From positions 688,447 to 752,446 of the forward strand of contig WELB01000030.1 of the NCBI GenBank assembly GCA_009602725.1: 64,000 nucleotides of DNA. Direction: 5' to 3'. Shown here piece after piece: positions 1,317-60,979 of this stretch; position 1 is the first letter of the stretch; each line of letters starts with the position of its first letter. The translations under genes and the position numbers were made by a program. Source of the DNA: Spirogloea muscicola (Eukaryota). The notes beneath the pieces are model-generated. The model made no database searches, was not told where the DNA came from, and saw only the letters and a list, made by a program, of their open reading frames with translations.

Positions 1317-1350
1317 TAAACCCTAAAACCCGAAACCCTAAACCCTAAAA
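1317..1350. repeat. Short interstitial plant telomere-like (CCCTAAA)n tract / telo-boxes
   Basis: taaaccctaaaacccgaaaccctaaaccctaaaa: several imperfect AAACCCT units. Confidence 0.6.
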
Positions 1351-8517: not shown

Positions 8518-9130
8518 TGCCGCCGCGAGCGCCGCCGCCGCCGCCGCAGCCGGCCACAGGACGCGCGCCGCGAGGGCCTCCGTCAGCGGCGGCTGGCCGA
8601 ACGCGCCGGAGGAGCGGCGACTGGCGGCCGGAGCCGCCGAAGNGCGGCGGCGGCGGCGGCGGCGACGGCGGCGCGGCGGTGGAGGCGGCGAAGGCGCTGT
8701 AACTGCTTCCGACTCGTTCGGAACCCTGGCGATTTGAAGACGTGGGGTTTTAGAGTCCCAGTGGGGATTAGGCTGATTGACTCGCGAAATGACAGTCAGC
8801 AGGTCGCCTGTTCGAACCACGAGCTCGGCAGTCCCTATCCCCTCGCCTCCCTAGCCGGCGCTCCTGCAGGAGCCGCCATGCTCGAGGCCTCACGCCCAGT
8901 CGCCCAGATGGGCGCTCCGTGTCGTGCTCCCCTGTGCTACATGTAGTCACGGCGCGCGGGCAACGAGAGGCGCGGCGCGCCTTCAAGGATAGCGCGACGG
9001 CCTGCGCGGCGGCACGCCTGCCGCTGTGGGTGCTAGCTCCTCCGTCGTCTGGCAGCAGTGGCGGAGGCTGAGCTCAAGCGGGTCGACAGTGTGGAGGATG
9101 CCAATCTAGGAGGCGAGAGCCCAACGAACA

Positions 9131-10764: not shown

Positions 10765-11085
10765 AGTTACTCGGTCAGTCCTGTTATTGTGTTTTCCCCT
10801 CGCAATCCCTCTTGTCGGCGTTTGGTGGCAGGCTGTGCTTGTGTGTAATATCTTTCCTCCAAAAGTTGCTCACATTGTGAGGCTCAGAGACCCATTCCAG
10901 TGCCTTGCATGCATGCTCTGAATGCAAATGCAGAAGCTGATTGGACCGACCTTTTCCTTCAATACTGAATACTGCGGTGCACTAGAGATGGGAGTAATGT
11001 GCAGCTCTAATTGAATCTTGAAAGTCAAAAACGAATAGGCAATACATGTTTTTGGGTATGCTCAGCCTTCCAGCTTAGTAGGCTG

Positions 11086-12390
11086 TCACTTGAGCAGGGA
11101 CCTTGCCAGGTGCTCCTTTGCCGTTGCAAGGGCCTGTGAGATCGTCTGCAAGAAGACACAGAGTGCTGACATGTCACTATGTGCATCTTAAGTCTCATCG
11201 ACAGTGTTGCAACAGCTAAGTAGAAATCCAGCTTGCTACACATTGGACAGCCGTGGACCTGTTCAGAGAGGGGAAGGTCGGTGTCTGCTCCCCGCATGGC
11301 CACTCGTCCAGCAATAACGTTGGGGTCGTTTTCGAGTATGATACTGCTTGCCAGAAGAGCCATGACAAGAATTAGCCACAATGTGACATCAGAGCATGGC
11401 AATGAAGAGCGCCCCTGGAGTCTCTGGAAGGGCTTGCAGGTGTCCAGCATAAGCTGGCATCTGAAAGTACTCTACACAGAGCCAGTCTTGAAGTGAGGGT
11501 CTTGTGAAAGGGTAATGCATACCCGCCATCAACAATTTCGTCCAAGCACAGAAGGACTAGATCCAGATTCTCCAGGACCGTCTTCTTCTCCATAGCCCCC
11601 CTGCGCAGGCCAGCCAGACAGTAGGACATCTGAGGAGCAGAGCCACGTAGGAGCACACCACCATGCGAATGACCTTGTACTCACCAGTCAGGACGACAAG
11701 ATTACCCATACTAAATAAGCTGAAGACTGGAAGAAGCTTCAAGAGTTCCAGGTGCTGCCTGAGTAGCTTTGACATGGCCGTGACTCGAACCACCGGAGGA
11801 CTGACGCAGCAGACCTGAGGAGAATGGAGACGGCCTCGAAGAAGGCCTGGAGCACGGTGGCGAGTATAAGCTCGTTCTCCTCGTCGCCGCCGGTCACGTA
11901 GAAGTGCAGGTCGGCCGCAAATTTGTAGACGACGACAAAGCCGTCGATCATGCCAATCTCCGCTGCGCACCTTGCAGGGCAAGCCTTCAGGGCCAGGCCC
12001 GGTGGTGAGGGGCGGGCAGCAGCTAGGTGGGCACCCGAGGTGGCCATCAAGGCCAGGAAGGTGCACACCTTCGGTGCGCGCATTGATGCGCTGCGTCTTG
12101 TTGAAGACGGACTTCTCGAAGCCCAGCTTGGCGGCGAGCGTCGGCCAGTCGTCCGAGTAGTACTTGACCGCCACGCGCTTGCCGTCGGCGTCCAGCAGCA
12201 ATATATTCTTGATCTCGGGCGACGAGGACTGCGCGCACGCAGCGCATTGCGTGCGTGGCCGCGAGAGAGCGCCGTCAGAGGAGCTTCAGCAGCAGGTCAC
12301 TGCAGCCATGAGCTCAGCGCCAACCACCGAGTGCCCCAGCTTGATTGCTGCGCCGCGGAGCTCCGCGCGACGTTTCAAGCACACCTCCAT
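11086..12390 (-). CDS. Coatomer subunit zeta (zeta-COP), multi-exon
   Basis: ME / [33 protein letters not shown] / [21 protein letters not shown] / [23 protein letters not shown] / [14 protein letters not shown] / ..HLARSLLK*. Confidence 0.95.
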
Positions 12391-13443: not shown

Positions 13444-16400
13444 ATGGCGGGCGTGGCGGGCCTGGACGAGGCGGACATCTTCGAGGAGGAGGACGCGCTG
13501 GGCGACGAGATGGCGCGCCTGTCCGCCGACGACGTCGTGCGCCGCACGCGCCTGCTCGAGAACGAGATCCGCGTCCTCAGGGCACGTCCCCCCTCCCCAG
13601 CGCCTCAGACTGGACCTTTGTGTCGCAAGAGGTCTAGGGTTCGAGTCCCGCCGTCACCCCGCCCTGGCCTCCCGCACCTCGCCGGTCGGCCTTTTCAGCG
13701 CCGGCCGACTGAGCATGAACACGTCAACTAGTGACGATATCGAGCTCGCCAGTGGCTAGACGTCGGCGAGTCCCTTATGCCAACAACATCTCGCAAAGGT
13801 TTTCCAATGGAATATTGTAAAATGCGGGGCTGGGTTTTGCTGCGGCGGCTGTCTGGACTTGTACAGCTCTGAAGAAGCGGCTCCACCCCTCTGTCGTGGC
13901 TCTCACTACTGAGAGAGGTCGTCAAAGTTTAGTGTTGCAAAGGGTTTTGGTGCTGATGCTGCACGTCGGTCTCTCCGTGCTGCAGGACGAGTCCCAGCGG
14001 CTCGCACTCGAGCAGGACGCGATCAAGGAGAAGACCAAGGAGAACCTGGAGAAGGTGAAGCTCAACAAGCAGCTGCCATACCTCGTCGGCAACGTTGTCG
14101 AGGTGACCCATGGACCCAAACCCCGCACGCATCTTCTGGAAGTTGCCAGTGGCACTGGCCCTCACGCAAGGCATGAGCCACCTTTTGGTGGACATCTGCG
14201 CACGATTGTCACTCCTTTGGATTTCTAAGCGGCCTCAGCACTTCCATCAGGCGAAGTCATCAGCTCCATCTGTAGAAATCCTCTCATAGGAAATAGTGCA
14301 GCCCAATGTTTCCCACAATCAGAGCCTGGCAAGCGGTGGGCTGCAGGCACACGGTCACTGCAGCAACTCACCAGGACCCGTTTTGTTCTGCCCGCAGATT
14401 CTTGACGTGAGCCCCGAGGAGGAGGCTGAGGAGGATGGCGCCAACGTTGACCTCGACTCACAGCGCAAGGGCAAGTGCGTGGTGCTCAAGACCTCCACGC
14501 GCCAGGTGCTCCCTTCTCTCGCCGAGCCCATGATGGAGCTCATGACTGTTCTCTTGGATCGGCATTAGCCCCTTGGTGGCTTGAGCCTAGCTGCTGACAA
14601 GTCCTTGCTTCGAAGCTTGTCCTTGAGCCTGCCCCTGTTGATTTCCGCTTGTTGATAATTTGACTGCTCTAAGAATTGCCACCTTGAGCAGTGCAGACGA
14701 TCTTTTTGCCGGTTGTGGGACTTGTGGACCCCGAGACTCTGAAGCCTGCGGACCTGGTGGGCGTCAACAAGGACAGCTACCTCATCCTGGACACGCTACC
14801 GGCGGAGTATGACTCGCGCGTCAAGGCCATGGAGGTGGACGAAAAGCCGACGGAGGACTACAGCGACATTGGTGGCCTTGACAAGCAGGTCATGAGGCCC
14901 TTGCCTCCTCCTGACACGCAGCACACTCAATGTACGTTCTAAGATTGGGGTTAAAGGAACTAGATACCATGTACGGGATACAAGGGACTGCCTTCTGCTG
15001 CTTCACAATATCGACTCTGACAATAATAGAGGAAGCTGACAGAATGTTACTTGGTTATTCTGGGCTCACCAGATTCAGGAGCTGGTGGAGGCAATTGTGC
15101 TGCCGATGACGCACAAGGAGCGGTTTGAGGCGCTGGGCATCCGGCCGCCTAAGGGCGTGCTGCTCTACGGCCCTCCTGGCACCGGCAAGACTCTCATGGC
15201 GCGTGCCTGCGCCGCGCAGACCAATGCGACGTACCTCAAGCTCGCCGGCCCTCAGCTCGTGCAGGTGTGGCGCACCTCCGCTGCGCTAGCTGTGTAAGTC
15301 GAGTATTTCAAAGTGCCTCAGGTCTTCTGTACTTTATATTCATATTCGATTCTGGCCTCAAAATTATGGTCCCTTGACTCCAGATCAGAATGATTTGAGT
15401 GTTTGCTTTTCACTCTCCTCATGAAATTCAGGACTAATCGCAAACTGACCTCTGGCTCAGGAAACAGTGCAACATAACCTAATGTAGGAGCTGAAGGACT
15501 TGACTGTTCATTGCAAGGTGTAGATGTTCATTGGGGATGGCGCGAAATTGGTGCGGGATGCATTCCAGCTTGCCAAGGAGAAGGCGCCCTGCATCATATT
15601 CATTGACGAAGTCGATGCCATTGGGACGAAGCGCTTTGACAGGTCAGAAGCGGATGCTCACAATATGTGCACCATTCAAGTTCGCTCTCCTCATTGACTT
15701 GGTTGTCAGCCAATGTCAGGCGTCTTCCTTAGAGCTGCTTGTGCTGCCTACTGTTCTGAAGCCTCACTAGATGAGCAAGACAGAGATTACATCAGCTTGA
15801 CTGCTGCATCTGTTCAACTAATGTACCTTGTGATGCATGGGCATCAATATCATTGAGCTCGTAGAACGATGGGGTAGTGCTTAGTGTCTCTGCTATTCGC
15901 ATGTACACATCATTCAGCACTAATGTTGAGCCAAAGCGGGGGCGCGTCAACCTACTGAACTTCACAAGTTGCCTGGGTGTCTTGAAAACACAGTGAAATC
16001 AGTGGAGACCGTGAGGTCCAGCGCACTATGTTAGAATTGCTGAATCAACTTGATGGCTTCAGCAGTGATGATCGCATCAAGGTAAATTATGTCAGCTGTC
16101 TGGTACTTTCTCAGTCTCTGCTGAGACTCGTGTGTTGTTTCAAAGTGGTAATCCGTGTTCTCTGGGTTGGGCTGCTTGGCGTCGAATGCCTACATCGATG
16201 AGAGTGTGCTCTGCTATCCCTGGTGACTATGTACCTAAGTCTCTGATCAATTCTCGACTCGATTACTGACTGAATGCTGCTCTGTGCAGGTCATTGCAGC
16301 TACAAATCGAGCTGACATATTGGACCCTGCCCTCATGAGGTCCGGGCGCCTGGATCGGAAGATTGAGTTTCCACATCCTACAGAAGAGGCTCGCGCTCGC

Positions 16401-22960: not shown

Positions 22961-24247
22961 CCGCAAGCATTGATTGCTTATTGCAGGATGCGGCTCTCGC
23001 TTAGCTTCCAGCGCTCTAGCCATACATCAGCGTGCTGGACGCGCACTAAGCCAGGCCACTGGCTTGCAAAGTTGTGCTTCGGCTCGCAGATTAATCTGCT
23101 CGACATGTATGTGCCCATTTGTGGGCAAGTAGAGTTACCTTCAGTTGTGCTTTTCGTTCTCTTGATTCATCTTCTCTAAGTTTCCGTTTGTGATCACCAC
23201 TTCAGTGTACATCACTGTACTGGCTTGGCTTGGCCTCCCTTCCACTCGGACAAATTGCTCGCCCATGGGAGATAGGGGCTAGGAAAGGCCAGCCCAAAAA
23301 GAAGGGACAGGATCCAAAGAGCCAAAAGGCGTCGAAAAGAAAAACCATACAGCTAGACTCGAGACGACGCAGATGGAAGCTTAATACTCTGTTTGACTTC
23401 GTGAACATCATGCCCCCTTCTTCTTGCCGTCAACCTCCTCGCTTGCACCAAAGACGGCCGTACCTCGGCCCCTGAATTGCTGTTGACATGAATTCAAAGT
23501 TCATCCTTTACATAAATTGTGATGTCCTCTACAGCCGTTCCTCAGACCTGCCACATCCTCTCACAATGTTCTTGGGCGTGGTACTTGAGCTGCATCTGTT
23601 CCTCTAACTGCCCTCCCCGTGCGCAGCTGCTATGTGCTGCAGGCAGCTCAACCAGTGGGTGTGGCCATTTCGCCTGCATACACAAAGCACTAATGCCTTG
23701 GCACTTACTAGCATGCATCACTGCAACCCCCTACGCTGGCACCACAACTGGGGCATGCACGTCCTCACCCTGAAGCAGCATCTTGTGAGTGCGTGAGGAA
23801 CTTTCAGGCATCACCTTTTAGGGGTAGGCGGAGTGCCAATAGGCAAGGCAACAATTCGGCGCTATGACTTGTGAAAAGAGGCTTGGCTGACCTAGAAGGA
23901 TTGGACAACCTATATGTGAATCACGAATCTCATTTTCAAGCGCAGAGGCTTCTGCTGAGAGCAACAAGCTGTGCTGTCTACTTCCAGACTCCAGGACAAT
24001 AGGGTATATACACAGCTAGCAGAAAGCATAGGGGCTGTCACCATTGCTTGTCTTAGTCTGCAGACTGCAGTAACACATGACAAGCCAGCTGAGGAGGCTA
24101 CGTATGTACAATATTACTTCTGTCTCCAACTGCCACAGCTGCTGTTCCCCCATCTTCTGTTTGAGAACCAGGCAGGCGACCATGGCTGCCAGTAGCCATC
24201 AACATTCATGGCCAGCAGGCGCAGTGAAAATGGAGGAGGCAGCTGCC

Positions 24248-32996: not shown

Positions 32997-33269
32997 GCAG
33001 GCCACGGACTCCAGCGGCGGCCAGGATCTCCCGGCACCACCGCTGCCGACTGTGCCGCCGCCGTTTCCTCAAGCCCCTCCTGCGGCACAGGCGGGCACGC
33101 CAGCCGAAGCTCCAAGGGCACCACACCTCCGGTATAGCACGGGCGCTTGCGCGGGCAGAGGAGCGCGCAGGACGCCGCCGCCAGCGGCGGTGGAGCGGCC
33201 TTGAGGAGGAGGTGCCGGGCTTGGATCGGGCAGCTTGCCGACAGCTGACGAGGAAGCAGCTCTTTATGA

Positions 33270-34280
33270 GGAAAAGGCGCGCGGAGCGCATGAAATGAAA
33301 GGGAGGCCAGTTCAAGCCAAGTGGGAATTGCCGTCGAGCGACCCGGCACAGAACGAAGAAGTTGCTCGCCCATAGAAGAAGAGGGGCTAGGCAAAGCCAG
33401 CCCGGAAAAGAATCGTCAATCAGCACAGAGGCTGATTGACAACGTAGCCCGTGCTGGGCTGGCCGTCTCCCAGCTATCAAATCGTGCTGGGGGTTGCCGG
33501 GGTGGCCCGTTGGCGGCGCGTTTGAAATGGCGACGAGGGGTCGCGTTTGGCGCCAAACTCTCGCCCCCCCGTTCTCAGAATCAACCAGGCAGGGGCGGAC
33601 TGGACGAGCCTAGCTTCCCGCCTGCCCTACGTGTTGCCACAGAAGGAAAGTGCGCGCAGAGGCAGAGGCCAGCCCGAAAAGAATGGACAAAAGTCCAAAG
33701 AGAGAGCCAAAATGCTCCTTGCCTTTGCACAGCTCCTTTGCTTGGCCCCTTTCGGTGGTTACTGAGCGGGTCAGCTTAGCAGCCCCCTGTCTAGAGGTTA
33801 CTGAGAGTCACCTTGCTGTTGTCTTAGTATTTAGCACTCCGGCACCTTCAGACCTTGTCCATTCCTTTGGGCTGGCCTCTCACAGCCACCAGTCAATCTG
33901 GCCGCGCTTTCGCTTAGCAGCAAGTGATGTCCATCTGTCAATGTGCTTGCCTTGGTACTTGGCCAGTCAGGCCCTCCATTATACAAGATACACTCTATTC
34001 CCCTTCGGACCTTGTCCATTCATTTTGGGCTGGCCTTTCACTTCTATCTGACAGCGACTAGCGATTGCTCCCTTTGTAAAGAAAGCGCCCTTTGTAAAAG
34101 GCCTTTCTTAGCGCTTCCTCTGGCTTCCTCTGGCCCCCTTCTCGTTCTTTGTTCATTCTTTTTTGGGCTGGCTTGTCCAGCCCCTATCCTCAATGGGCGA
34201 GCCCTTTCCTCTTTCCTTTGTAAAAGCTTCTGGCGCTCACAGCCATCGACCCCTTCCTTTGGGAGAGCCACTTTCGTTTT
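33270..34280. repeat. Cluster of dispersed-repeat fragments in both orientations, derived from the 3' UTR of the RLE retrotransposon family
   Basis: 33757 ggttactgagcgggtc and 33890-33965 match 27499-27575. Units ccccttcggaccttgtccattc..gggctggc..cagcc recur at 33845, 34000 and 34130. 33270-33325 matches 45300-45352, 48770-48818 (rc) and 59765-59808 (rc). Confidence 0.75.
33546..33557. promoter_or_regulatory. Palindromic E2F-consensus site TTTGGCGCCAAA
   Basis: Matches TTTSSCGC on both strands; lies between the divergent cell-cycle genes RUK and PSF2. Confidence 0.45.
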
Positions 34281-35408
34281 GGTGGAGGAGAAGAAAGGAG
34301 GAGGAGGAGGTGCGCGGTGCGTATGGAGCCATAGGGATGCCACATCAAGCCACCACACTGTTCAGGCAAAAAGTCAAGTGCAAATTCAAGGCGCGACCGG
34401 CACGCAGGTGCAATGCGCGTGCCATTGACCGTGCCATGATGCGCGTTCACCTCACATTAGACTGGTTGGTATGCATGTTCTCACTCGTATATACTGGAGG
34501 CCCCCGTCTGTTCTTCAGTCATTAGTCGTGTTTTTCGTCGTGTTACCTTAGCCCCTCCTAGGTTTCCCTCTCTTCTCGTTGCAATACTTTACTGGCTTGC
34601 TTTGGCCTCCCTCTCAATGCATGCGCACTGCGGGCCATCTATCCAGATCCCTGCTCGCACGAGAAAAGGAATGGGGCCCCGTAGAGGACTGGCCGTGGAG
34701 GCAAGCCTCAGTCCGGTGGCAGGCTAGCCGTGCTCAGTGGACAACGCATTTCCCATACCCTCTCGCCCGAGCCGCGGCGGCAGGCGATGCTGCTAGTGCC
34801 GCCCGAGCCTGCCGCTGCAGGCTCCGCTTCGAGCTCGCTGCGACCACAGCCGTGCACCGTCACCGCTGCGCCACCGCGCCTCTCCAGCCTAGCAGGCTGA
34901 GTGCTGAGACTGGTCACTGCTATTCGCAAGACTTCTCCCCTCCGCTCGCCGACTGAGCTGGTCAGGTGGCGTCATGTCCCAGCAACCAGCGGCGAGCGGA
35001 CACTGCATTAGAGACTCGTGGGAGGCGAGGAGGGCAGTGCAGTGACCTGGTGTCCTTGCGCTTGCGCTGGTTGTAATACTGTTCCTCAAGGCCGGTCTTG
35101 AGCTCTTTGCTTTTGGGGGCCTTCCTGACATGCTTGAAGGTATGATAACAGCGGTCCTGGCAATCTCAATGGAGTTGAGCTTGTGAAGATGCAAGGCACC
35201 ACAACAAGTACATGTGATTGAGCAAGGACATATTCGTCAATACATGCCAAAATCTCCACAATGTAGTTCAGCTTATGGCATCAGCTACAATCACAGGTCT
35301 CGACTTTCATGTCTGAACACACTGATATGACAATCCTTTCAAGTGACATGATGCTGCAGTTGATATTGTTGGTCAATCAGTAGCTTTCGTGGAGCCTGGA
35401 TTGGGATT

Positions 35409-45289: not shown

Positions 45290-45400
45290 GACTCTCTGAT
45301 AAAAGAAGGCGCGCGGAGCACATAAAATGAAAGGGAGGCCAATTCAAGCCAATGCATTGTTCAGGCAGACACTAGTGCAAACTAAACAATCTACACGATA
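45290..45400 (-). repeat. Dispersed repeat fragment (RLE-family tail)
   Basis: aaggcgcgcggagcacataaaatgaaagggaggccaattcaagccaatgcattgttcaggcaga is near-identical to 33276-33320 and to the reverse complement of 48753-48816. Confidence 0.75.
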
Positions 45401-45584
45401 CCAGACCTTAAATACAGAGAAGGATAATAAAGAGAAGAGAAGACGCTTCCAGGAGACGCTTTCTGATCTCTAGTACGGCGTCGGCCTGATAACGGTGCAT
45501 GGTCCGTTGTACTCCGCAGTCAGAGAAGCTCCTGCGCCGCCGCCGCCAGGGCCGCCGCCGCCGCCGCCAGCGCCGCTGCCCGCC

Positions 45585-47912
45585 ATGGCGATCGAGGAGG
45601 CGGTACTGGCCGCGATCAAGGCCGCCAAGCCCGTTTTCCGGGATGACCACGACCGGGTCGCGTTCGCCGCGCACGCCGCGGTGCTGGCGTCGGGCTACAG
45701 CCTCGTGGCAGCTGGCCGCAGCGTCGACGCTGAGCCGTCAGGTCAGGGCCAGCTCTCAAGCGATGGCTACATGCAGTGGAGACGGCACTGCCTCGTCGAG
45801 CTGGAAGCCGGGCCGTGAAGTGACCCTGCGCGCTGCGGACGCATGGCTTGTCATGCAGAGGCCAAGGAGTCGGAGGCGACCAGCAGCTGGAAGAACAGCA
45901 ACGGCACGTACGCCTTCCGCTATGCGGCTGACGACGACCCCGAGCGGACGATGATTCTCAAGGGCACAGCCATGGGCGAGTCGCTCATGCTCGACGCAGC
46001 TGCTGACAGCAGGACCACCAACACAGAACTAAAGTTGGTGTTACCTTCGCCAAGCGCATTCTGCCCAACAATCTCAAGCGGATATCCAGCTTTTGATTTC
46101 ATTCTGATTATCTCAAGGCCATGACATGCGATCCAACCTGCAACCTACCTGATGCTGGTGACTGGTTCAGTGCAGCTCTGATGTCCTGCATGGGTCCGTA
46201 TCACAAGGAATTAGCCTGGAAGTACGAGAACTTGGCAGCCTGTCACAAGTCGATTTGTGCGTGTTTTCAGGGTGAAGGACTACGTGGCAGACACCAGCAA
46301 CTCAAGCTATGCAAGGCAGTACAAGAATTTGAGATTGCTTGTGGAGCATGTTGAGAGAGACATTCTCAAGGACTTATATCCGCCTATTGCAAGTGCCAAG
46401 TCGACCAGTCGTTCCAGCCAGTATGCATGCCCACTCTTCTCTGTTGGCAGTCCCGACTCTGCTGCTTACACCACTAAACAAGTCCTTGCAGTACTACTCT
46501 TGAAGCCTTATCCTGCTATTGTAAAGTACATGTTGTTGCGTGCATTATTGTATCAACCCAGACTAGTATAACACCTTTACCTTGTTCACTTTTCATGCAC
46601 TCAAAAATCATGCTGCACCCGCAGGGGGAAGACCGAGACGAGTCGGCTGATTGAGGGCGAAAACCAACCTCAGTGGCAGCCTGCTCAGGGGTACATTTTC
46701 GTGTTCATCAATTGCATTATGCTTGTTAGCTGCAAGGGATGGCTGCGGGGCCAGTACTGGAATCTGCTGTGTGCGGTCGATCAGAGGCTGTGACAGTCAC
46801 TGAAGTGCCGTTTATTTCCAAGTCAATTCAGCAGGAGTGGACTCTACGTACCCAACCAGGGACACGACGATCTTTATCCAGCGAGTGGACTCGGAGTTTT
46901 TCCCATGCAGTAAGCCACCAGCATGTAGTCTGCAGTCATCAGCGAAGATGCTCGAGTCCACTGCAGATCAGAGGCATCAGTCTGTGGGTCATTGGGCTTG
47001 TTTGACTGTAAGCAGAAACACAATTAGAAGCTATGCTTACAGATTGTCGATTGCGGTAGCGCGTGAGAAGATGATGTCAGTTTGTGGCTTTTCCTGCAGA
47101 CCTGACATGCCAGGTCTTATGGGTGGTGTTGGAATACCCGGGGGAGGTGGCATGCTTCTTGGTAAATACGATATGCGCTTGACCTAGGACTCTGCTGAGA
47201 AAGAAAGGCTGAGTCCTTGTCATACTGGAGCAGCGTTGACATTGCTTGGTCTTGACAGGTCCCAATGATCCCAGGTGGTTAGGAGTTGGAAGCAGCCAGG
47301 GGCCTTATGGTGGTGGTCTTCCACCGTAAGATGCTAGTCCTTTCGATGGAAACAGGCAGGAAGCTTCCGAGAATTTGTGTTACGTACACAACAGAGACTG
47401 CTTGTGGCTTTTGGAAGTGCATTCACAGTGCTTTCATGATCTCCAATTATTTATATTGAGCTCGATCAAGGACGACTTCTTTTCTGTGAGTTCAGCATTA
47501 TCTGCGTCATATTGCCGACGGACAGGCAATACTTTCAGTCTCAGTGCCGTCGTTTGTCATTGGTGATGCACAGAGGGGTCCCTGCAGGAGCTCGATTTGA
47601 TCCATACGGCCCTTTTGGAGTACCTGGATTCGAGCCAGACCGATTTGGCGGGTATGTTCGATCCCATTATACCCAGATGGCTTTCTTAGACTAATCAAAT
47701 TTGGGCATAGATTGCGGTGGTGATATAAGGTAGGCGAATTTGCCATCCGCCTGACTTATTATGTGGTAGCCCTACATGTATTGTTGGGCTGCGCCAAGGG
47801 GAGAGCGCAGACAACTCTTAAGCCTCAGTTTGCGCTTTACAGAGAAGGTGGAAGGGGGCCGCGGCCAGGGCCTCACGTGCACCCTGATGTGCAACATTTC
47901 TACCCCTTCTGA
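45585..47912 (+). CDS. Proteasome inhibitor PI31 (PSMF1/PTRE1-like), multi-exon
   Basis: AVLAAIKAAKPVFRDDHDRVAFAAHAAVLASGY, YAFRY, GGGMLLGPNDPRW, GVPAGARFDPYGPFGVPGFEPDRF, HVHPDVQHF. Confidence 0.9.
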
Positions 47913-48719
47913 GCCCCTGAGGACAGGATATGTTTTTGAGGGAGGCTTTGTCAAGTAGTCACAGTACAATTTTCGCAGCATGCTGGGGGACTGCATGAGC
48001 CTGCTCAGTTTGCCTGAGACCTGTACATGTGTGTATAGTAAGATGGTGCAAGAGAAGATTTTGCAGGCGCTGTCATGAAATATCCCGTCGGTGGCTTATT
48101 CGTGTCGGTCTGACAAGACATGTGAGGTGGCACAACACGCGGACGACTGAGACACGTCACCTATCTAATACTGTAAACCAGAATTCGCAAACACAGCACC
48201 TCTAGCACAACTCCGGTCGCGTAAGTGTGGATTTGTCTTTGGAACTATCGATTATACATCAACAGGCCAACCCCATCCTCCAATCTCAACCACTCAAACA
48301 CCGTGCGTATCTGCCGCTGGACCGTAGATTTGGTATCCCAGAGGCAGCCCCAGCCTACCGCCCGAAACCGCTCAAAAGCCCAAGAGAAGCCGAAAAGCCT
48401 TACGCCTACTTCGATGGGTGTGCTCCCACCTTGACGAGTGAAGGCGGGTACCGGTCAGGCTAGCGGCGGGTAAAGGTGAAAGGGTGAGGGAATAGCAATC
48501 CCAGGCTACACTGGCCTTGGGAATTAAGGGTGGAGGGGCAGGTCGGAAATAGTGGTCTCAGGCTACACTGGCCTTGAGATCGAGGAGGAGGGGGAGCCAA
48601 ATGGGCCAACGAGCCTGCTCCAAAGAAAACAGAACCATTCTTTCCGAGTTAGCTTGTCAGATTTGTTTGTGCTCACCCGTGGGTACTAATGTCATCTTAG
48701 GTACCTTAGATTAGGTCTC

Positions 48720-48895
48720 CGTATTATATAGCATTGTTTAGTCTGCACTCGACTCTGCCTGAACAATGTATTGGCTTGAATTGGCCTCCCTTTCAATTCA
48801 TGCGCCCCGCGCGCCTTCCCCCTTCTCGTACTCTGTTCATTCTTTTTCGGGCTGGTTGTTCCAGCCCCTATTCTCAATGGGCGAGCACTTTCTTC
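48720..48895 (+). repeat. Dispersed repeat fragment (RLE-family tail), cut by N gap
   Basis: Matches 45300-45375 (rc) and 34135-34205, including gggctgg-ttgtt-ccagccc-ctattctcaatgggcgagc. Confidence 0.75.
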
Positions 48896-49007
48896 NNNNN
48901 NNNNNNNNNNNNNNNNNNNNNNNNNNNNNNNNNNNNNNNNNNNNNNNNNNNNNNNNNNNNNNNNNNNNNNNNNNNNNNNNNNNNNNNNNNNNNNNNNNNN
49001 NNNNNNN

Positions 49008-49099
49008 CGAAGTCCCTTCATTGGGCGTGATACTGTTCGGTCCGAAGTCCCTTCATTGGGCGTGATACTGGTTCTGTCCGAGCCCGTAGTAGGGCGTTC
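49008..49099. repeat. 35-bp tandem repeat at the gap edge, upstream of gag
   Basis: cgaagtcccttcattgggcgtgatactg at 49008 and 49043; a third degenerate unit cgagcccgtagtagggcgt at about 49079. Confidence 0.8.
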
Positions 49100-49287
49100 T
49101 CAATTCCGTTACTATTTCAAAGACCGATACCGACACTGAAACTGTTACGGTGACGGCTATTGGCCATCAGTTTCGGATCTAGTCCGTGCATCGCTATCAT
49201 TGCTTGGTGTTTCGGCTGCCTCTTTACTGGACCGAGTGAACTCCATTTTATTGTGTGGCGGTGATATCAAGCGATTTGTGTCTGTGC

Positions 49288-50388
49288 ATGGACTTAAGAA
49301 GCGGCCGCAATACTGAGTCTGTAGGTGAACCTTCAGATATTGTTGAGCTGCCAGTTGACGTATCAGACATTGCTGCTGTGGGTGGTTCGTCTGCAGGAGA
49401 CTCCGCAGTCATCTCTCGCAGACCTCGTCGCGCCATCATGTCTAGCGGAAACAGACCCACTTACAGAGGTACGCCCGGTGGTGATCCTCTTGCAAAGGTG
49501 AAATTGCATTATTATGCAGAGCTCTGCCAGCTGAGATTGCTAGGCAGTACTATCAGTCGGGAGGATAAAATGCTTTTACTGGGTCCCTATTTTAGTTATG
49601 AGGCAGCGGATGTCTGTGAAAGGCTGAAGGACGATCTCTTAGCTATGACCACACCAGTCCCAGCTAATGCATCACCGGCAGAATTGGAAAAGGGTCCTCA
49701 GTTACTGGAGGATCCAGTCAAAGAAATGTCTAAGTCCTTGGAGGAACAATTCCCAGTAAACGCAAATCTTTATAAGCAGGAACTGCTCAGGTTTAGCCGG
49801 CTTCCGAATGAGTCGACCACTTTGTGCTACTTCCGATTTAAGAAACTCATTAAACAGTCAGAAACCCCTATCAGCGAGCAGGAACTCGCTTCGCAGTTCC
49901 TGGACGTCTTTTCTGGCAAAGATTTAAAACAGATTCAGACCTTATTGCTGGTACGTCGTCAGCAATTAGGCAAGAAAGATTACAATTTAGAGGACGTGTA
50001 TAAGGTAATGATGGAGACAGAAGCTGACGACTTTGCATTGCACATTGCGAACGAGCGATTTGCAGGCATTGGAGGTGCTATGGCAAAATATTCAAACAAA
50101 TTATCAGGGTGTAATGTCAGGACACACATTGACACACCTGTATCTTCACCTTCTGTCAAGTCATTTTCTCCTCAGAATACTTCCATAACAGGGTGTCTCC
50201 ACTGCGGAAAAAGGGGACATGTCAAGGAAAATTGCAGGCTTCTACATCAAACTTCTGGTGCTGTATGTTCGTTCTGCAATAGGACCGGTCATTTAGACAC
50301 GCAGTGTTGGCAGAAACACCCAGAAAAGTTGCCCAACTCTATGAAGGAGAAATATGGTCAAGAAAGGGTGTCAAACCAAGTTGCGTAG
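49288..50388 (+). pseudogene. gag: Retrotransposon gag with two CCHC zinc knuckles
   Basis: Starts MDLRSGR; RLPNESTTLCYFRF gag-like motif; CLHCGKRGHVKENC and CSFCNRTGHLDTQC. Confidence 0.85.
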
Positions 50389-51119
50389 TCGTCCGGACCC
50401 TCTCAAACCAAAGTCGATCAACTGACAAAACAGATTCAAGAACTGACAAAACAACTGACAGTTGCAAAGGCACAGACAAAGTCTAAAATAGTCTCGGCTG
50501 CGTTGCCATACTCAGGTCAGGAAGAAGATGAGGATACATACCCAACTGGAGAAGATGAGAATACATACCAAGGACAGCACAACCCTAACAATACTGATGG
50601 GTATGATATTCGACACGCATATACCTTATCTCTGCCCAGACGTAATCCTCTTAAGCGAGGGGAAAACGAGTTGCAGCCAAATGTTAGTTCTGGTAGTTTT
50701 CGTTACCCAGCGAGCTTTCAGCTGAAAGATATTGAAGCCGACAGCCCACCTCGCCGTGTTAAACCTGTGTCACCCAAACCAGTTATTGACATAGATCCAA
50801 AGATAAGTTCTGTGTCAACTGATAAACTACTGAATAGGATGTATTCCACACCTATCTTGAGCTTTGAAGACCTTGGCATGACAAAGGCACAGTTGGGGGA
50901 CCATATACAAGCCTCCGATAGTTCGTACCAGATAGTCACAGTGCAAGTGACTGATTCGCCGGCAGTGATGACAACAGCACCCTCAAAATTCTTAGCTGTT
51001 GACAATGTCTCATGCAGGCCACCAACTGAACGCACCGAGCAGCTGGCAGCTGTAGCAATGCTGCAGAATTCCGACGGAGTCATTCAAGTTTCTACCAAGA
51101 ATGTCACTGAGGCACCTGA

Positions 51120-51420
51120 TAAGGTCCTAATGGACACAGGTGCACAACCCATCTTACTTGGTTCTCGATTTGCTAACTTGTTAAAGATTGGGAAAAATTA
51201 TATGCAAAGTGACAAGGTCATGATCACTACAGCAACTGGTTCCACTGATAATGTGGTCGGAATTACAAAACACCCGTTGCTTATCACCTTCAATAGTCAT
51301 GATCCTGCCAAGCGTCCTCTTTCTCAGCAATTTGCTTGATAACCAAGGCAACAACATATGATATATTGCTGGGTACTGAGACCTTAATTCCTTTGGGTTT
51401 TGGAATAGACTACTATGCTG
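51120..51420 (+). pseudogene. Retroviral-type aspartic protease domain (frameshifted)
   Basis: VLMDTGAQP active site; YDILLG in the next frame. Confidence 0.85.
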
Positions 51421-52036
51421 AACAGGCATGGTACAGACCTCAATGGGAGATTTCAGGCACTACAAAAGTCATGTTGCCACTATTAAAGGGGTGGAAATCC
51501 AATAACACATCAGCTCATATTGGCATGGTTGTGTTGAATACAGGAAGGAAGGCCGTTGAGACGTCAATTGCAAATCCTGCAGAGGACTCTAAAATGCAGA
51601 CGGGTGACACCGCTGAAGGGAAGAAGGCAGCCCAACAGCCAGTTGACATTTCCCCTAAGAAGGACGCTGAAGGTTCACCTGTAACTGACTTGAATAAGCC
51701 TCCACCTGCTGTTGTGCTTGTCTCGACTTCCAACAAGTGCGGTTTGTCAACGTCCGACAATCCTGTATTGCAGCCCAATCGCCACCTCGTACCCTTGTTC
51801 ATTCAGGCTTGACACCAGCTGATTTGGAGACATTGGAGCATGCAAAGCATTGGGAACGAATTCAGGCTGCACGGATGAGTTTCCCAGTTATAGGGCACTA
51901 TCGCGCAGCCGAAGCATGGTCACCTTTTACCTTTGAGACTCAGGTGCAGCCGCGCAAGACCAACATTGGCTCCAATGACGTCAACAATATTGGCATATTG
52001 TACGAGGGAGTAATCGAGTGGAATATTCCCGAAGCT

Positions 52037-52990
52037 GGTATTGTTCTGGTCGAACTGTTTGGCGGTGCAGCCAATGGCCTCAAAGCTGTGCTACAGAGTC
52101 ATATCAAGGTGGCCAAATACTATTATGTGGATGCAGATGAGGAGGCCAGAGCAGTGGCCCAGCATCATATTGACTGGTTAATCGGCCAGTACCCCACTTT
52201 GGTGACTGAGCAGACATTCAGTCATTGGGATACAATGTTCCCGCAGGACATCACAGAAGCAGTAAAGTCAGCTTTCCCCAAGCTGCCTCATGTGGATCTT
52301 GTTATGGCGGGTTTTCCTTGTGGTGGTTTTAGCTCACTTGGCAGCGGGCTGGGCTTCAAGCATCCCCAGACAGGCCTGTTCATTACCATGATGGAGTAAT
52401 TACACGACATTCGCTCCCGTCAGGCTACGCCTTATGGATACATAATTGAGAATGTGGAGCCAAAGCCAAGCCAACATAACGCTCGACGCCATTTTACTAC
52501 GGTGTGCGACATTCTGGGACCACCCACAAAATTCAATGCAGCAAAAATGGGGTCATTGGCTGACCGCAACCGTGTGCACTGGACGAACCTAGCACCACAA
52601 CAAATGCTGGAGACTTGTATCAAGCACCAGATCCGGCCTCCAAACCTGTATGCCTACGTGGCACTTAATCCCGGCCGTGAAGTGGTACCGGTTATCCATG
52701 CACTCAACAGAGGTTCATACAACATGGAACGTTGTCATCGCATGACGTTTCCCACCTTCGTTGCAACTGAAGGCTCAGTGGATTTCCATGTGGTCAGAGG
52801 AGAGCCAGGTCAAGGCATGGTCAGAGATATAGCCACTGACACATATGAAGAACCACACCCTCACGAGCGAGAGAGGGCAATGGGTTATAATCCAGGAGAG
52901 ATTTCCCTACTCCACTTTTCTCGCACAACCAATATCCGCATCATAGGAAATTCTTTTGATGCAAATTCAATGTCTTGGTTTACAAGCGTC
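52037..52990 (+). pseudogene. C5 DNA cytosine methyltransferase domain in-frame within pol (one internal stop)
   Basis: Motif I VELFGG, II YVDAD, III QDIT, IV DLVMAGFPC, VI YIIENV, VIII ADRNRVHWTN, IX ERERAMGY, X IIGNSF; all in the same frame as RT and IN. Confidence 0.92.
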
Positions 52991-53155
52991 TGTAATGCCA
53001 TACAAGTGCAATATAGATTGAAGAAGAGAAGCTTTCTGACCAATCCACAACAAATGGCAGATTCAGACAAACAACTGTTGCAGTTGTTTGACCCACCAGT
53101 CAGAGTGGTCAACGAATCCTGACAATCAAAGACTAACAGGCAGGTATACCATTCT

Positions 53156-54600
53156 TTGCCAGCCTATCAATGGCATCTTGGTCCTGACCTGACCACCGAT
53201 GACAAAGCTAACATGCTACATATACTAAATAGCAGTCTTTCTGCTTTTGCTTTCTCATCAGCTGATTTGGGCACCTATGTTGGTTCCAAATTTCAAATTC
53301 AGCTGACAAATGAGCAACCTATCTTCCGTCAACGTTATCCCTTGTCTAAGTTTGAAAATGATTTTATAGACAAGAAATGCCAGGAGTTGCTAGCTGTTGG
53401 TTTTATACAACCATCCCACAGCTCCTTTGCAGCACCTACTGTATTACCAGCAAAGAAAGATGAGTTTGGTAATTACACAGATCGGAGAATGTGTGGAGAT
53501 TCCCGTTTGCTCAATGCTTCCACACCTTTGGATCGTTATCCCATGCCAACGACAGAGGAGATTTTTGCTTCTGTGGGTAACAGTAAAATCTTCTCAGTAC
53601 TGGATCTTCGGCAAGGGTTTAACCAAATAGATATTGAGCCTCACGACAGGCACAAGACCGCTTTTTGGGGGGTCAGTGAAGGTGTTGGATTTTTATACGA
53701 ATGGATAAAACTGCCATTTGGTCTTAAGAATGCTCCGATCATGTTTCAGCGTGTTATGGATATGGTGTTGAAACGTATTCCATTTGCACGTTGTTACATT
53801 GACGATGTGTTGGTATTCAGCAACAGCTTTGAGGAACATTTAAGCCATATCGCCGTTGTGCTTACAACCCTTCAGCAAGCTGGCCTAAGATGTCACCCGG
53901 GCAAATGTCGTTTTGGCCTACCTGAGGTTGACTACTTGGGACACCAGATATCACACAAAGGATTGTCACCACAAGCAGCCAAAGAACAAGCAGTTCTTGA
54001 CATTCCTGAACCAACAAATCTCAAATCATTACGGTCGTTTCTTGGTTTGGCCAGCTATTATCGACGTTTAATCAAGGATTTCAGCTCCATAGCCCGGCCT
54101 CTTAATGATTTGTTGAAGAAGGATGTAAAATGGCAGTGGACTCCCCCTCGTCACCAGGCGTTTAATCAGCTTAAACATGCTCTTACTCAGGCTCCAGTTC
54201 TTCGACATCCCGATTACACTCAACTATTTTACTTACACACTGATTGGAGCAAAGTTGGCATGGGCGCCGTTTTGACTCAGCGTGACGAGAACAAACATCA
54301 TCATGTTATTGCTTATGCCAGCTGCAGTAACAATTCTGCACGACAAAAGTATTCAGCATATGAAGGGGAGTGCTTGGCTGCTATGTGGGCCATTACACAT
54401 TTCAGGCCTTACCTTCATGGTCGCTCATTCCAATTAATCACTGATCATCAACCATTACAGTGGTTGTTGACTACCCAAACTTTCAGAGGCAAGCTAGCGC
54501 GTTGGTGATCCAAATTACAGGAGTATGACTTCACAGTTGTTCATCGTCCCGGTATTCAAAATCTGGACGCCGATGCTCTGAGTCGAAGTCCAATTCCTGA
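53156..54600 (+). pseudogene. Reverse transcriptase plus RNase H (Ty3/gypsy)
   Basis: RMCGD, VLDLRQGFNQI, KTAF, LPFGLKNAP, YIDD, FLGLASYYRR; RNase H LHTDWS, YEGE, TDHQPL. Confidence 0.97.
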
Positions 54601-54899
54601 TGCTGATTCCAATCCACTTGCTCACATGACTATATGGGATAAGACAGTGTTTCCTTCTCGGCTACCTCATGCTCTGAGGTCATCCACACATAACAACTCT
54701 TCAGCATATAATCTCGACATTCCTGATGATACCTTCTTTTCTAGAGATGTCTGGTTGGACACGCCAGTTTTACAGTATCTACAAACTGGTATTTATCCTC
54801 CTGACTCTACAACAATGCAGAAGGATCGAATAAAACACCGAGCACGTCGCTATGTTTGGACTGATACCCAACTTATCAAACCAGATACTGAATACGGCA

Positions 54900-55930
54900 A
54901 TCAGATTGTTCCGCCACCTGCATTGCGGACACAAATCGTGCACGATGTTCATGCCTCCTTAGGGCATTTTGGTGTGAAGCGTACTATCAGTTTGTTGGCC
55001 ACTAAATACTGGTGGTCTGGCATCACAAACATGGTGAAACATGTTCGATCCACTTGCGAGGAATGTGATCGCATTCGCAGTACTCTTTCGTTAAAGTCAA
55101 CTCAGTTTCATCCGTTGCCCATTCACAGATTGTTCTATCGGTGGAGTTTGGATTTGGCTGGTCCTCTACGTCTGGGTAAACAAAGACCCTACGTGTTAAT
55201 CATGATTGAGCATTTTACCAAATGGGTTGAAGTGGTTGTCATTCCTACCAAGTCTAGTGTACACATCGCTGAGGCCTTTTTAGACCAAGTATTATCCAGA
55301 TTTGGCGCTTGTGCTGAGGTTCTCACGGATCAAGGTTCGGAATTTCAGGGTGAATTTCAACGTCTCTTGGACCAAACCTTTATCGATCACCAACTTACCT
55401 CACGAGACCACCCTCAAGCTGATGGCTTAGCGGAACGCATGGTTCAGACAATCAAACGTGGTCTGACAAAGTATGCTCTTCGCAAAGGCACAGAAAGGTG
55501 GAACAAATCCCTGCCATGGCTTATAATGGGATACCGAATGTCCAAACAGACATCTTTGTCAGCTTATAGCCCTTACTTTCTTCTTTATGGACGTCATCCA
55601 GTCATTCCTGTCAGTCTTCAAGCTGTGGTCACAGAAGTAGTTGACTTTGATAACCCGCAAACGTGGATGAAAGTTTGTACTGAACGGGGACGTCTGTTCA
55701 AACGTCATATGCCCATTGCTTTAGACAACCTCCGTATTGCTCAACATCGCGATACCCAACGATATGCTACAATTCGCAGTGGCAATTATCAAGCCAAACA
55801 TCAGTCGATTGCTGTCAATGACTATGTATACCTCAAGGTGAAACCTCAGGATGCACTAGATGCCTCTACAGGTCCGTTTATATACAAGGTTGTTGGCAAA
55901 AACAACTCAGGCATCATTCGTTTGCAAGGA
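54900..55930 (+). pseudogene. Integrase (HHCC plus DDE core)
   Basis: HASLGH..CEEC; SLDLAG (D), LTDQG (D), HPQADGLAER (E); SPYFLLYGR; GPFIYKV GPY/F-like motif. Confidence 0.95.
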
Positions 55931-56041
55931 TGATGTGGTAGGGAAATTTCTGATCATATCCAAAATATCACACCTTGCCATCTTACCAACATTGATACTA
56001 CAATTTACCCTACCAGGCAGTGGGTCTCTGCACACTTATCA

Positions 56042-56176
56042 TGCGAAATTTGTCATCGGGAAGACCAAGCAGCCACCATGCTGTTGTGTTCTGCTTGCAA
56101 CAAGGGGTGGCATATTCATTGTTTAACACCACCACTCACAAGTGTTCCTTCCGATGATTGGTTCTGCACAGCTTGT
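56042..56176 (+). pseudogene. PHD finger at the C-terminus of pol (not in ORF track)
   Basis: Reading through TGA 55931 in frame: CEICHREDQAATMLLCSACNKGWHIHCLTPPLTSVPSDDWFCTAC (C4HC3); stop TAG at 56216-56218. Confidence 0.93.
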
Positions 56177-56801
56177 GTGGATAATGACCCAACTCTGCGA
56201 CCTGGTCAGGACTCATAGTTGGGGGGGGGTAAACTGGAAATCATCCATCACAAGCTCCAGTGACCTTCTCATTCTGACATTACACTATCTATTTTGTTTC
56301 CAGCTTAGCAATATGCAAATTTCTCGTTTTTTTATTTTCCTTTGACAATGTTTGGCGTTGCCGGTCACGCGGATTCAATGTTGTCACCTGCATTTCTCAC
56401 ACATCTCTCCTATCGACGTTAACTAGCAACCGACACCATGTAGCACGACAGCGCTGCTCAATTTGCCGTCAGTCTTGTCGTGGAAGTCCCCTATCTCAGC
56501 CAGGCATGGCATACTTGGTGTCGCTTATCAACTTTCAGGCTTGGATTGGAAGGGTTTGCACATCTTGGGCACCACTGGATTGGTTATAAATTGGGTGGTC
56601 GAGACATAGCATGCACTGTCAAAGGACGCCAAGTTGCAGGGGAAGGGGCAGCCACTGCTGCCTTGTCAAATACTCAGTCGAGGGGGCACAGCAACAGCTC
56701 TCTGGGTATGAAGCGAGTTGGGGAGTGGTGCTGTGAACAAGTAGCCCATTTGAACAAGCTGCCCGAGTGTGGAGTGAGTGATGCCACAACACCGTGGCAC
56801 C

Positions 56802-57183
56802 TCACGGCGAGTAGTCGTACTCGTAGGGCGTGATGCCGAGCATGGCGCTGACGGTGAGGTAGGTAAGGTAGAAGCCGCCGGAGAGGGCGGCGAGCGTGAG
56901 GACGGCGGAGAGGGGCCGGCGGAGGAGGTCCCCGATGGGGCGCGCGATGGAGTAGAGGCCGCCGGTGAGCACGGTGAAGAAGAAGGAGATGTAGCGCGTC
57001 ACGTTCTCCCAGAACTCCTCAGCCAGCGGGCCGTCGGGGCCCAGCGCCAGCGCGGTCATGTCGACGTCCAGGCCCGCCTTGGCGTGTGACGCCGCAGCGG
57101 CCGCCTCTGCCGCGTCGGCGCAGGCCGCGCCGGCCAGCAGAGCCAGGCCGACGCCGAGCCCGAGGCCGCGCGCCACAAACAGN
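56802..57183 (-). CDS. Ycf33-like (DUF751) chloroplast protein; 5' end interrupted by n
   Basis: ALALGPDGPLAEEFWENVTRYISFFFTVLTGG..LLRRPLSAV..TVSAMLG. Confidence 0.85.
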
Positions 57184-57184
57184 A

Positions 57185-57400
57185 GGGAAAGAGGCACTCC
57201 GCCGAGACCCAGAGGCGGCGGCCATAGCACGGCCTGCTCGCGTGTGGACGGCGTGGGCAAGGGAGCGTTGAGGCGATTGGGAGCGCTGGAGGGACAGATA
57301 ATCGCATGCGGTAGCAGGACACAAGACCCAAAGGCAGCGAGCCTCCAGGCCGTGCTGCACCCTGTTCCCGGCGCCGCTGGTCACCTTGAGATGCCGAATT
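57185..57400 (-). mobile_element. 3' end remnant of RLE/CRE-like retrotransposon family
   Basis: Reverse strand YRMRLSV.LQRSQSPQRSLAHAVHTRAGRAMAAASG matches 22628-22745. Confidence 0.7.

Positions 57401-57644: not shown

Positions 57645-60979
<3,335 letters not shown>

What the first reader, a model, noticed from the sequence alone, without database searches (positions are those of the whole stretch)
49288..56218. Ty3/gypsy retrotransposon encoding its own DNA cytosine methyltransferase inside the pol polyprotein
Seen: between protease (DTG, about 51130) and RT (YIDD, about 53800) lies a roughly 320-aa domain with C5-MTase motifs I-IV, VI and VIII-X in canonical order (VELFGG, AGFPC with catalytic Cys, ENV, RNRVHW, ERERAMG, IGNSF). 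It shares the reading frame of RT, RH and IN, has no introns, and has no flanking insertion boundaries, so it is part of the polyprotein rather than a nested host gene. Established: standard gypsy pol has no such domain. DNMT-carrying retrotransposons have been reported in dinoflagellates and charophyte algae (de Mendoza et al. 2018), so the concept is not wholly new, but this family may be undescribed. Inference: the protease would release the DNMT inside the particle, where it could methylate the cDNA or the integration site, for example as self-silencing or camouflage in a methylated host genome. The RxRxxW motif VIII and short variable region resemble DNMT3-type enzymes.
Basis: partly seen in the sequence, partly recalled or inferred. 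Interest (0 to 1): 0.9.

Follow-up and report, generated by a model that had tools for sequence, protein, structure and literature searches.

The report
Algal retrotransposon with built-in DNA methyltransferase
This is a dead copy of a jumping gene in a green alga that carries its own DNA cytosine methyltransferase, a kind already published from another alga; what is new is a conserved stop codon right after the methyltransferase that ribosomes likely read through, which would make the enzyme as abundant as the element's coat protein.

Summary
In detail: Gag–protease–DNMT–RT–RNase H–integrase–PHD. The DNMT passes PF00145 (41 bits, cut-off 22), and its best structural matches are DNMT3 enzymes. 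The element spans 48071–56450 with a 4-bp target duplication. This copy is dead (four decay stops, two frameshifts), and diverged copies in the same organism also carry the DNMT. It belongs to the published Gypsy-DNMT3 kind (KnitGypsy-Dnmt3, PMC5890265): a Klebsormidium nitens protein has the same Gag–PR–DNMT order (31% identical), and relatives have the split A-coding-B-A-B repeats. The host is another streptophyte alga. The scan saw this kind before in moss DNA.

Two additions were not found in my paper searches. (1) The stop at 53120 between DNMT and RT is probably programmed. It reads TGA-CAA-TCA, a full CARYYA readthrough context. Two other subfamilies have a stop followed by CAR at about the same place, and 0 of 633 decay stops have CARYYA. 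The DNMT would then end the Gag ORF and be made in excess over RT. One large subfamily lacks this stop. (2) The family spans Closterium, land-plant contigs and chlorophytes, where the DNMT sits between RNase H and integrase. Activity and readthrough are untested.

The parts
48067..48070 (.). Left copy of 4-bp target-site duplication (GCGC)
   Evidence: exact 4-bp duplications also in 4 of 8 relatives examined
48071..49228 (+). 5' terminal segment A, starting TGTCATG; contains an N gap (48896-49007) and a nested high-copy repeat
   Evidence: Same 7-mer starts segment A in 7 of 8 relatives; right border taken from contig joints 49226-49230 to 56227-56233
48647..48895 (.). Dispersed very-high-copy repeat nested in segment A (borders approximate; runs into the gap)
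   Evidence: Fragments elsewhere in the window; thousands of extra contigs laid and many loose ends; no Rfam match
49288..50388 (+). gag with two zinc-knuckle-like motifs; ends at a decay stop
   Evidence: knuckle hits below cut-off; other copies differ at this stop
51050..51482 (+). Aspartic protease (DTG, Asp at 51133), broken by a frameshift between 51294 and 51333
52031..53008 (+). DNMT3-like C5 cytosine methyltransferase domain; motifs I-X in canonical order; one decay stop at 52397
53120..53128 (+). In-frame TGA followed by CAA TCA: predicted type I (CARYYA) readthrough signal between Gag-PR-DNMT and RT-RH-IN-PHD
   Evidence: motif definition PMC3542737
53486..53950 (+). Reverse transcriptase core (YIDD 53795-53806)
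   Evidence: PF00078, 97 bits
54137..54526 (+). RNase H; decay stop at 54506
   Evidence: PF17917 and PF17919
54911..55414 (+). Integrase zinc-binding and DDE core; decay stop further on at 55931
   Evidence: PF17921 and PF00665
56042..56176 (+). PHD finger at the end of Pol; ORF stop at 56216-56218
   Evidence: PF00628; nearest solved PHDs BAZ2B, KMT2D, Lid, BAZ2A
56220..56450 (+). G-run (polypurine-tract-like) and 3' terminal segment B, ending CACGACA
   Evidence: 8-12 contigs per run leave the sequence at 56450 with unlike flanks; same G-run and end 7-mer in relatives
56451..56454 (.). Right copy of target-site duplication (GCGC)

Best explanation
This is a decayed copy of a streptophyte Gypsy-DNMT3 retrotransposon whose DNMT3-like methyltransferase follows Gag and protease and likely ends that first ORF at a leaky stop, so that the enzyme would be packed into the particle in excess and would methylate the element's own new cDNA. 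Shown: domain order, conserved catalytic residues, DNMT3 fold, ends with a 4-bp duplication, other DNMT-bearing copies in the same organism, and a stop plus CAR at a conserved place in three lineages. Inferred: ribosomes mostly stop after the DNMT and a minority read through to make RT, RNase H and integrase-PHD; the protease frees the DNMT in the particle; the DNMT marks CG sites on the cDNA so that it enters a CG-methylated genome already looking like host DNA; the PHD, whose nearest solved relatives I recall as readers of unmethylated H3K4, steers integrase away from promoters.
For: Domains and fold: every listed Foldseek row is a DNMT3 entry; DNMT3B Z 24.0, rmsd 3.0 over 271 residues; M.MpeI 21.4; HhaI 19.5; family profile: DNMT3A 70 bits against HhaI 38. 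Catalytic residues across 246 aligned family domains, counted in rows without gaps: Cys 237 of 237, Glu 233 of 233, both Arg 233 of 234. Same order in 71 of 80 fetched loci, with many repeat views of one family, in K. nitens GAQ93235.1 and in Closterium proteins. Diverged copies in this organism cover the DNMT start (82 differences in 459 bases) and the DNMT-RT junction (74 in 438). DNMT dN/dS 0.09-0.30 in 7 of the 10 unsaturated pairs of relatives. Stop: window TGA-CAATCA 85 codons before the RT anchor; L001 and L002 TAG-CAGTTA at 94; 8 of 8 subfamily-B loci TAR-CAACCY at 87. In L002 it is the only stop between a 1369-aa and a 1047-aa ORF. Background: 0 of 633 decay stops carry CARYYA and 12 carry CAR. 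CARYYA also works on UGA in plants.
Against: The largest subfamily fetched (L007/L011 type) has no such stop, and P0343, P0356 and P0360 run from DNMT into RT without one, so the arrangement is not universal. The 2018 authors state that the DNMT shares the ORF with RT and RNase H. Subfamily B has CAACCY, not the full hexamer. The K. nitens domain did not methylate DNA in yeast (inconclusive). Three pairs of decayed copies give DNMT dN/dS 0.40, 0.55 and 0.90. The window's DNMT sits on a long branch (1.46-1.55 against 0.46 for its Pol) and departs from the family at motif VIII (D for H), which may mean relaxed selection in this lineage. Selection within this organism's own family could not be measured.
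Confidence: 0.62

Rival explanations
1. Same element, but the stop at 53120 is just another decay mutation and the DNMT was part of one long Gag-Pol polyprotein, made one-to-one with RT.
For: The copy has four other in-frame stops; subfamily A and several homologues are continuous; authors' statement.
Against: Only this stop, of 8 examined in the element, has the CARYYA context; 0 of 633 decay stops in relatives do; its position matches natural stops in two other subfamilies.
Confidence: 0.17
2. The stop is natural but is bypassed by splicing, as I recall for Ogre elements between gag-pro and rt, or Pol has its own transcript.
For: AG dinucleotides in acceptor-like contexts lie at or just after the stop in the window and in subfamilies B and C.
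Against: The frame is kept across the stop in the window, in L001/L002 and in 7 of the 8 B loci, which an intron does not require. The exact hexamer occurs in two distant lineages.
Confidence: 0.1
3. The DNMT acts mainly in trans or after integration (host chromatin, competing elements or viruses, or damping the element's own activity) rather than on the new cDNA; abundant Gag-level production would suit this too.
For: The 2018 paper lists host-benefit and chromatin roles; an antiviral role was proposed in PMC6338049. The element's CpG o/e of 0.59 is no lower than many host bins (0.38-0.54).
Against: Fusion to Gag predicts packaging with the RNA (established knowledge of LTR particles); no data on trans activity.
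Confidence: 0.1
4. One-off insertion of a host or bacterial methyltransferase into a gypsy copy, or a misassembly.
For: The assembly has gaps nearby; no contig spans the whole element.
Against: Same order in 71 of 80 loci and in named K. nitens and Closterium proteins; pol and DNMT trees make the same split; independent contigs bridge DNMT and RT.
Confidence: 0.01

Closest known systems
KnitGypsy-Dnmt3 of Klebsormidium nitens (de Mendoza et al. 2018, PMC5890265; parts 1-5 of 7 read, plus peer-review passages; Fig. 4c and the supplementary figures not visible)
   Same: Gypsy domains with an intronless, unpermuted Dnmt3-like domain; DIRS-type split repeats (seen in relatives); K. nitens GAQ93235.1 is Gag-PR-DNMT and 31% identical over 335 columns.
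   Different: Other host (host RUNKEL kinase 39% identical to K. nitens); stop with readthrough context between DNMT and RT, not mentioned in the text I read; this copy has only A-coding-B; a PHD is not mentioned in the text I read but may be drawn in the figure.
SymbioDIRS-Dnmt3 of Symbiodinium (same paper)
   Same: Dnmt3 domain in a retrotransposon with A-B-A-B repeats; shown to methylate CG de novo in yeast.
   Different: Tyrosine recombinase rather than DDE integrase; independent capture according to the authors.
EpiLTRs of Cymbomonas and Euglena (bioRxiv 10.64898/2026.05.21.726589; passages read)
   Same: Ty3/gypsy-like elements with a cytosine methyltransferase and a chromatin reader.
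   Different: Their DNMT is sister to DNMT4 and comes with a DAM and a chromodomain; the authors separate them from streptophyte Gypsy-DNMT3.
Type I (tobamovirus) stop-CARYYA readthrough (PMC3542737 and PMC2754532; passages read)
   Same: Stop followed by CAR YYA; works on UAG, UGA and UAA.
   Different: Here predicted in a retrotransposon between a methyltransferase and RT; not measured.

Membership tests
Streptophyte Gypsy-DNMT3 (KnitGypsy-Dnmt3 kind) | Gypsy domain order PR-RT-RH-IN with DDE integrase | tested here: met
   4-bp duplication
Streptophyte Gypsy-DNMT3 (KnitGypsy-Dnmt3 kind) | Intronless, unpermuted Dnmt3-related domain with key residues kept | tested here: met
Streptophyte Gypsy-DNMT3 (KnitGypsy-Dnmt3 kind) | DNMT groups with the K. 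nitens element DNMT | tested here: met
   Group of 17 rows holding the window, K. nitens and Closterium, support 89/80 (not starred); the window row is a long branch; only two outgroups
Streptophyte Gypsy-DNMT3 (KnitGypsy-Dnmt3 kind) | Split direct repeats A-coding-B-A-B | tested here: inconclusive
   Present in 7 of 21 relatives self-compared (L009, L011, L013, L040, L046, L068, L072). This copy has A-coding-B only, but the A|B junction stands in several contigs of the same organism and the end motifs match
Streptophyte Gypsy-DNMT3 (KnitGypsy-Dnmt3 kind) | DNMT within the Pol polyprotein ORF | tested here: inconclusive
   Same frame as RT but behind an in-frame stop; part of Gag-Pol only if read through. 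The K. nitens protein on record also ends just after its DNMT, though it is flagged partial
Streptophyte Gypsy-DNMT3 (KnitGypsy-Dnmt3 kind) | Purifying selection on the DNMT between copies | tested here: inconclusive
   Relatives: 7 of 10 unsaturated pairs 0.09-0.30, three pairs 0.40-0.90; no genome held for this organism
Active C5 DNA methyltransferase | Measured 5mC formation | not testable with these tools
   This copy has a stop inside the domain; the K. nitens test was inconclusive
Type I CARYYA readthrough signal | Stop followed by CAR YYA with the frame continuing | tested here: met
Type I CARYYA readthrough signal | Measured readthrough | not testable with these tools
   needs a reporter or proteomics
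DIRS/Ngaro elements | Tyrosine recombinase instead of DDE integrase | tested here: not met
   The 8 plus-strand ORF pieces scanned give rve and no recombinase
EpiLTR | DAM plus chromodomain plus DNMT4-sister DNMT | tested here: not met
   No DAM or chromodomain hit; the DNMT is DNMT3-like

The most novel reading that the evidence does not exclude
Gypsy-DNMT3 is not a Klebsormidium oddity but one ancient green-plant clade (chlorophytes, Klebsormidium, zygnematophytes, a land plant) from a single DNMT3 capture. The enzyme has since moved within the polyprotein: between RNase H and integrase in chlorophytes, before RT in streptophytes, where several lineages put it ahead of a CARYYA leaky stop so that each particle carries far more methyltransferase than reverse transcriptase.
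Probability: 0.5. Interest if true: 0.72.

Novelty: new member of a known kind. Interest (0 to 1): 0.5.

Why it matters
Why retrotransposons keep an enzyme that hosts use to silence them is still open. A programmed stop placed after the DNMT would show that these elements select for a high dose of the enzyme in the particle, which gives a direct, cheap test (reporter, particle proteomics, cDNA methylation). The breadth of the family (495 clusters at E up to 1e-30) and its two domain orders would move its origin from one alga to the base of green plants and supply many natural enzymes to assay after the inconclusive K. nitens test.

Tried and rejected
No whole genome is held, so copy counts and within-genome dN/dS could not be done. 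No RNA holder listed: no statement on expression. Ordinary LTR pairs were sought and not found between the two ends; a weak inverted match led to the true 5' end. Summed contig depth is lowest over the DNMT, but the tool says depth cannot rank parts, so I do not use it. A B-to-A junction was not among the 15 joints shown of 135; absence is not shown. Neither 53120 nor 52397 is among the 40 listed differences of about 2600, which is uninformative. CpG depletion as a sign of self-methylation: element 0.59, flanks 0.71 and 0.78, several host bins 0.38-0.54, no DNMT-free element as control: rejected as evidence. Viral contigs: 62 pattern matches, no relative. The protein atlas gave no result. REM1 paper not held. 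Rfam on 47900-49400: no match. Gypsy lineage (chromovirus or not) was not tested, for lack of a reference set. No complex prediction was run. Trees left out rows lacking near-full domains (45 rows kept). P0038, which I had labelled pre-RT by guess, falls among the chlorophyte-type DNMTs.
Full report
Observation. The plus strand from 51698 to 56218 is one frame holding DNMT, RT, RNase H, integrase and a PHD finger, interrupted by stops at 52397, 53120, 54506 and 55931. With X at the stops, Pfam gives DNA_methylase 41.1 bits for the isolated domain (cut-off 22), and RVT_1, RT_RNaseH, Integrase_H2C2, rve and PHD above their cut-offs. Gag (ATG 49288, stop 50386) and the protease (Asp 51133) lie upstream in other frames; against a relative's uninterrupted ORF the frames change between 51294 and 51333 and again between 51482 and 52013. 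The copy is therefore dead: four decay stops (50386, 52397, 54506, 55931) and two frameshifts, spread over its domains. Other copies in the organism's contigs differ at the 50386 and 55931 stops.

The enzyme. An AlphaFold model from a five-sequence alignment (pLDDT 75.7, pTM 0.79) matches DNMT3A/B/C/L entries in every listed Foldseek row. In the wide search DNMT3B scores Z 24.0 (rmsd 3.0, 271 residues) ahead of M.MpeI 21.4, HhaI 19.5, Dnmt2 19.0 and DNMT1 18.6. The family profile scores DNMT3A at 70 bits and HhaI or DRM2 at 36-39; the single sequence alone does not separate them. Among 246 aligned family domains the catalytic Cys (237 of 237 ungapped rows), the motif VI Glu (233 of 233) and both motif VIII Arg (233 of 234) are nearly invariant. 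The window keeps all four.

Boundaries. There is no ordinary LTR pair. Relatives with the same domain order show split direct repeats A-coding-B-A-B: 7 of 21 loci self-compared, for example L013 with A 5268-5560 and 14466-14758, B 14300-14463 and 14759-14922. They begin TGTCATG, end CACGACA, have a G-run before B, and 4 of 8 have an exact 4-bp target duplication (one near, three unresolved). The window has TGTCATG at 48071, a G-run after the PHD stop, CACGACA ending at 56450 and GCGC on both sides. In four runs of one sample, 8-12 contigs leave the sequence at 56450 with unlike flanks, and several join 49226-49230 to 56227-56233, which is the A|B junction. This copy is A-coding-B; the missing A-B was lost by recombination between the B copies or collapsed in assembly (inference, not resolved). 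The internal B|A joint of relatives is CACGACA, two bases, TGTCATG in all three subfamilies. That looks like the two integrase ends set tail to head with the dinucleotide integrase normally trims, and may let one RNA template both ends (inference).

Not a one-off. About 840 contigs per run lie on 49008-57182, nearly half under 90% alike. One diverged copy covers the DNMT start (82 differences in 459 bases) and one bridges the DNMT end and the RT approach (74 in 438). Of 80 metagenome loci, 71 have the DNMT after the protease or before RT, 4 have it between RNase H and integrase, and 5 show the DNMT alone; many rows are repeat views of one family. The profile finds 495 clusters at E up to 1e-30. 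Named members with the window's order are K. nitens GAQ93235.1 (Gag-PR-DNMT, 31% identical) and Closterium proteins. Named members with the DNMT after RT and RNase H are from Tetradesmus, Haematococcus and Monoraphidium; a Scenedesmus protein matches the DNMT only. Of 128 further proteins, 70 had the second order, 6 the first and 52 were undetermined. Locus L011 has a PPR-E-DYW gene beside the element, which I recall as typical of land plants; earlier scan notes call such DNA peat moss. Trees of 45 elements split the two orders in both RT-RH-IN (SH-aLRT 100) and DNMT (96). With two outgroups the 42 element DNMTs form one side (96/94) and the window groups with K. nitens and Closterium at 89/80 on a long branch. 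One capture followed by a move fits; two captures from related host genes are not excluded. DNMT dN/dS between relatives is 0.09-0.30 in 7 of 10 unsaturated pairs and 0.40, 0.55 and 0.90 in three pairs of decayed copies.

Host. The RUNKEL-like kinase in the window is 97% identical to EukProt record SM000131S26743, 39% to K. nitens, 38% to Chara and 38% to Physcomitrium. The host is thus not K. nitens. I recall that id style as belonging to the zygnematophyte Spirogloea; no call names the species.

The stop at 53120. It lies 30 codons after the DNMT and 85 codons before my RT anchor and reads TGA CAA TCA; none of the 7 other stops examined in the element has CARYYA. L001 and L002 have TAG CAG TTA at 94 codons, and in L002 this is the only stop between a 1369-aa Gag-PR-DNMT ORF and a 1047-aa RT-RH-IN-PHD ORF with no Met before the RT. 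P0005 and P0006 end at the same place. All 8 subfamily-B loci (two are near-identical) have TAG or TAA then CAA CCY at 87 codons. Among 633 decay stops inside domains, 12 are followed by CAR and none by CARYYA. CARYYA is the tobamovirus readthrough motif and also acts on UGA and UAA; plant reporters gave 32% for the TMV context. Against: the large L007/L011 subfamily and P0343, P0356 and P0360 have no stop there, the 2018 authors describe one ORF, and splicing is not excluded.

Mechanism. Shown: anatomy, fold, residues, conservation. Inferred: Gag-PR-DNMT is the main product, readthrough supplies Pol, the protease releases the DNMT in the particle, and it methylates the new cDNA, probably at CG as the Symbiodinium DIRS Dnmt3 domains do in yeast. 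The PHD is nearest to those of BAZ2B, KMT2D, Lid and BAZ2A, several of which I recall as reading unmethylated H3K4.

Literature. PMC5890265 (parts 1-5 of 7 and peer-review passages) describes KnitGypsy-Dnmt3 with DIRS-type repeats, Ka/Ks under 0.2 and an inconclusive yeast test. Its Fig. 4c and supplementary figures were not visible and may already show the domain order, PHD or stop. Passages of PMC12344493, PMC6338049 (it says loosely that methylase-bearing elements occur in green algae and charophytes and not in tracheophytes) and bioRxiv 10.64898/2026.05.21.726589 place the Gypsy-DNMT3 in streptophytes. Passages of PMC9940879, PMC8557442 and PMC6673714 show that PHD fingers are common in algal elements. 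Searches (listings only, except papers named above) showed no report of readthrough in these elements, of zygnematophyte members or of the chlorophyte order; subscription journals are not covered.

Verdict. Real, and a new member of a known kind. The likely leaky stop and the green-plant-wide spread add testable content. Interest 0.5.

Noticed in passing
window 48647-48895; fragments at 23252-23310, 33266-33413, 34134-34382, 34590-34639, 45305-45408, 59758-59812: A short dispersed repeat of very high copy number (adding it raised laid contigs from about 840 to 7826-11512 per run); no Rfam match; identity unknown.
   Followed up: partly
P0007, P0008, P0046, P0104, P0108; L003, L004, L018, L045: Chlorophyte-type gypsy elements carry the same DNMT family between RNase H and integrase, with catalytic residues intact; motif IV is often GWEC instead of GxPC. 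Some add a G-patch (P0047, P0049, P0075, P0090) or a chromodomain (P0093).
   Followed up: partly
L011:17220-18605; L049:3460-4155; L019:4316-5275: Flanks of the AT-rich loci encode a PPR-E-DYW protein, a LysM protein and a PIF1 helicase, pointing to a land-plant host for that subfamily.
   Followed up: partly
L002:8653-8668; L019:14600-14615; L009, L040, L046, L068: Conserved CACGACA-NN-TGTCATG joint between B1 and A2, like two integrase ends joined with the untrimmed dinucleotide.
   Followed up: partly
L007/L011 subfamily, 94-96 codons before the RT anchor: Keeps CAG TTG where L002 has CAG TTA after its stop, but with a sense codon in front, as if the leaky stop had been lost.
   Followed up: no
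P0038: Protease at 154-245 and a chlorophyte-type DNMT at 915-1250 with no RT or RNase H hit between; deletion derivative or a third arrangement.
   Followed up: no
window 56802-57380 (-), 57647 onward (+), 45583 onward (+): Neighbouring host genes that I recall as Ycf33-like, adenosine kinase and PI31 proteasome inhibitor; the element sits about 350 bases from the first. Not tested.
   Followed up: no
window 56817-57051: A second contig at single-copy depth differs at several positions in the host flank: an allele or homeolog.
   Followed up: no
window 1318-1350 and 5135-5152: Short telomere-like runs (CCCTAAA, TAACCC) inside the sequence.
   Followed up: no
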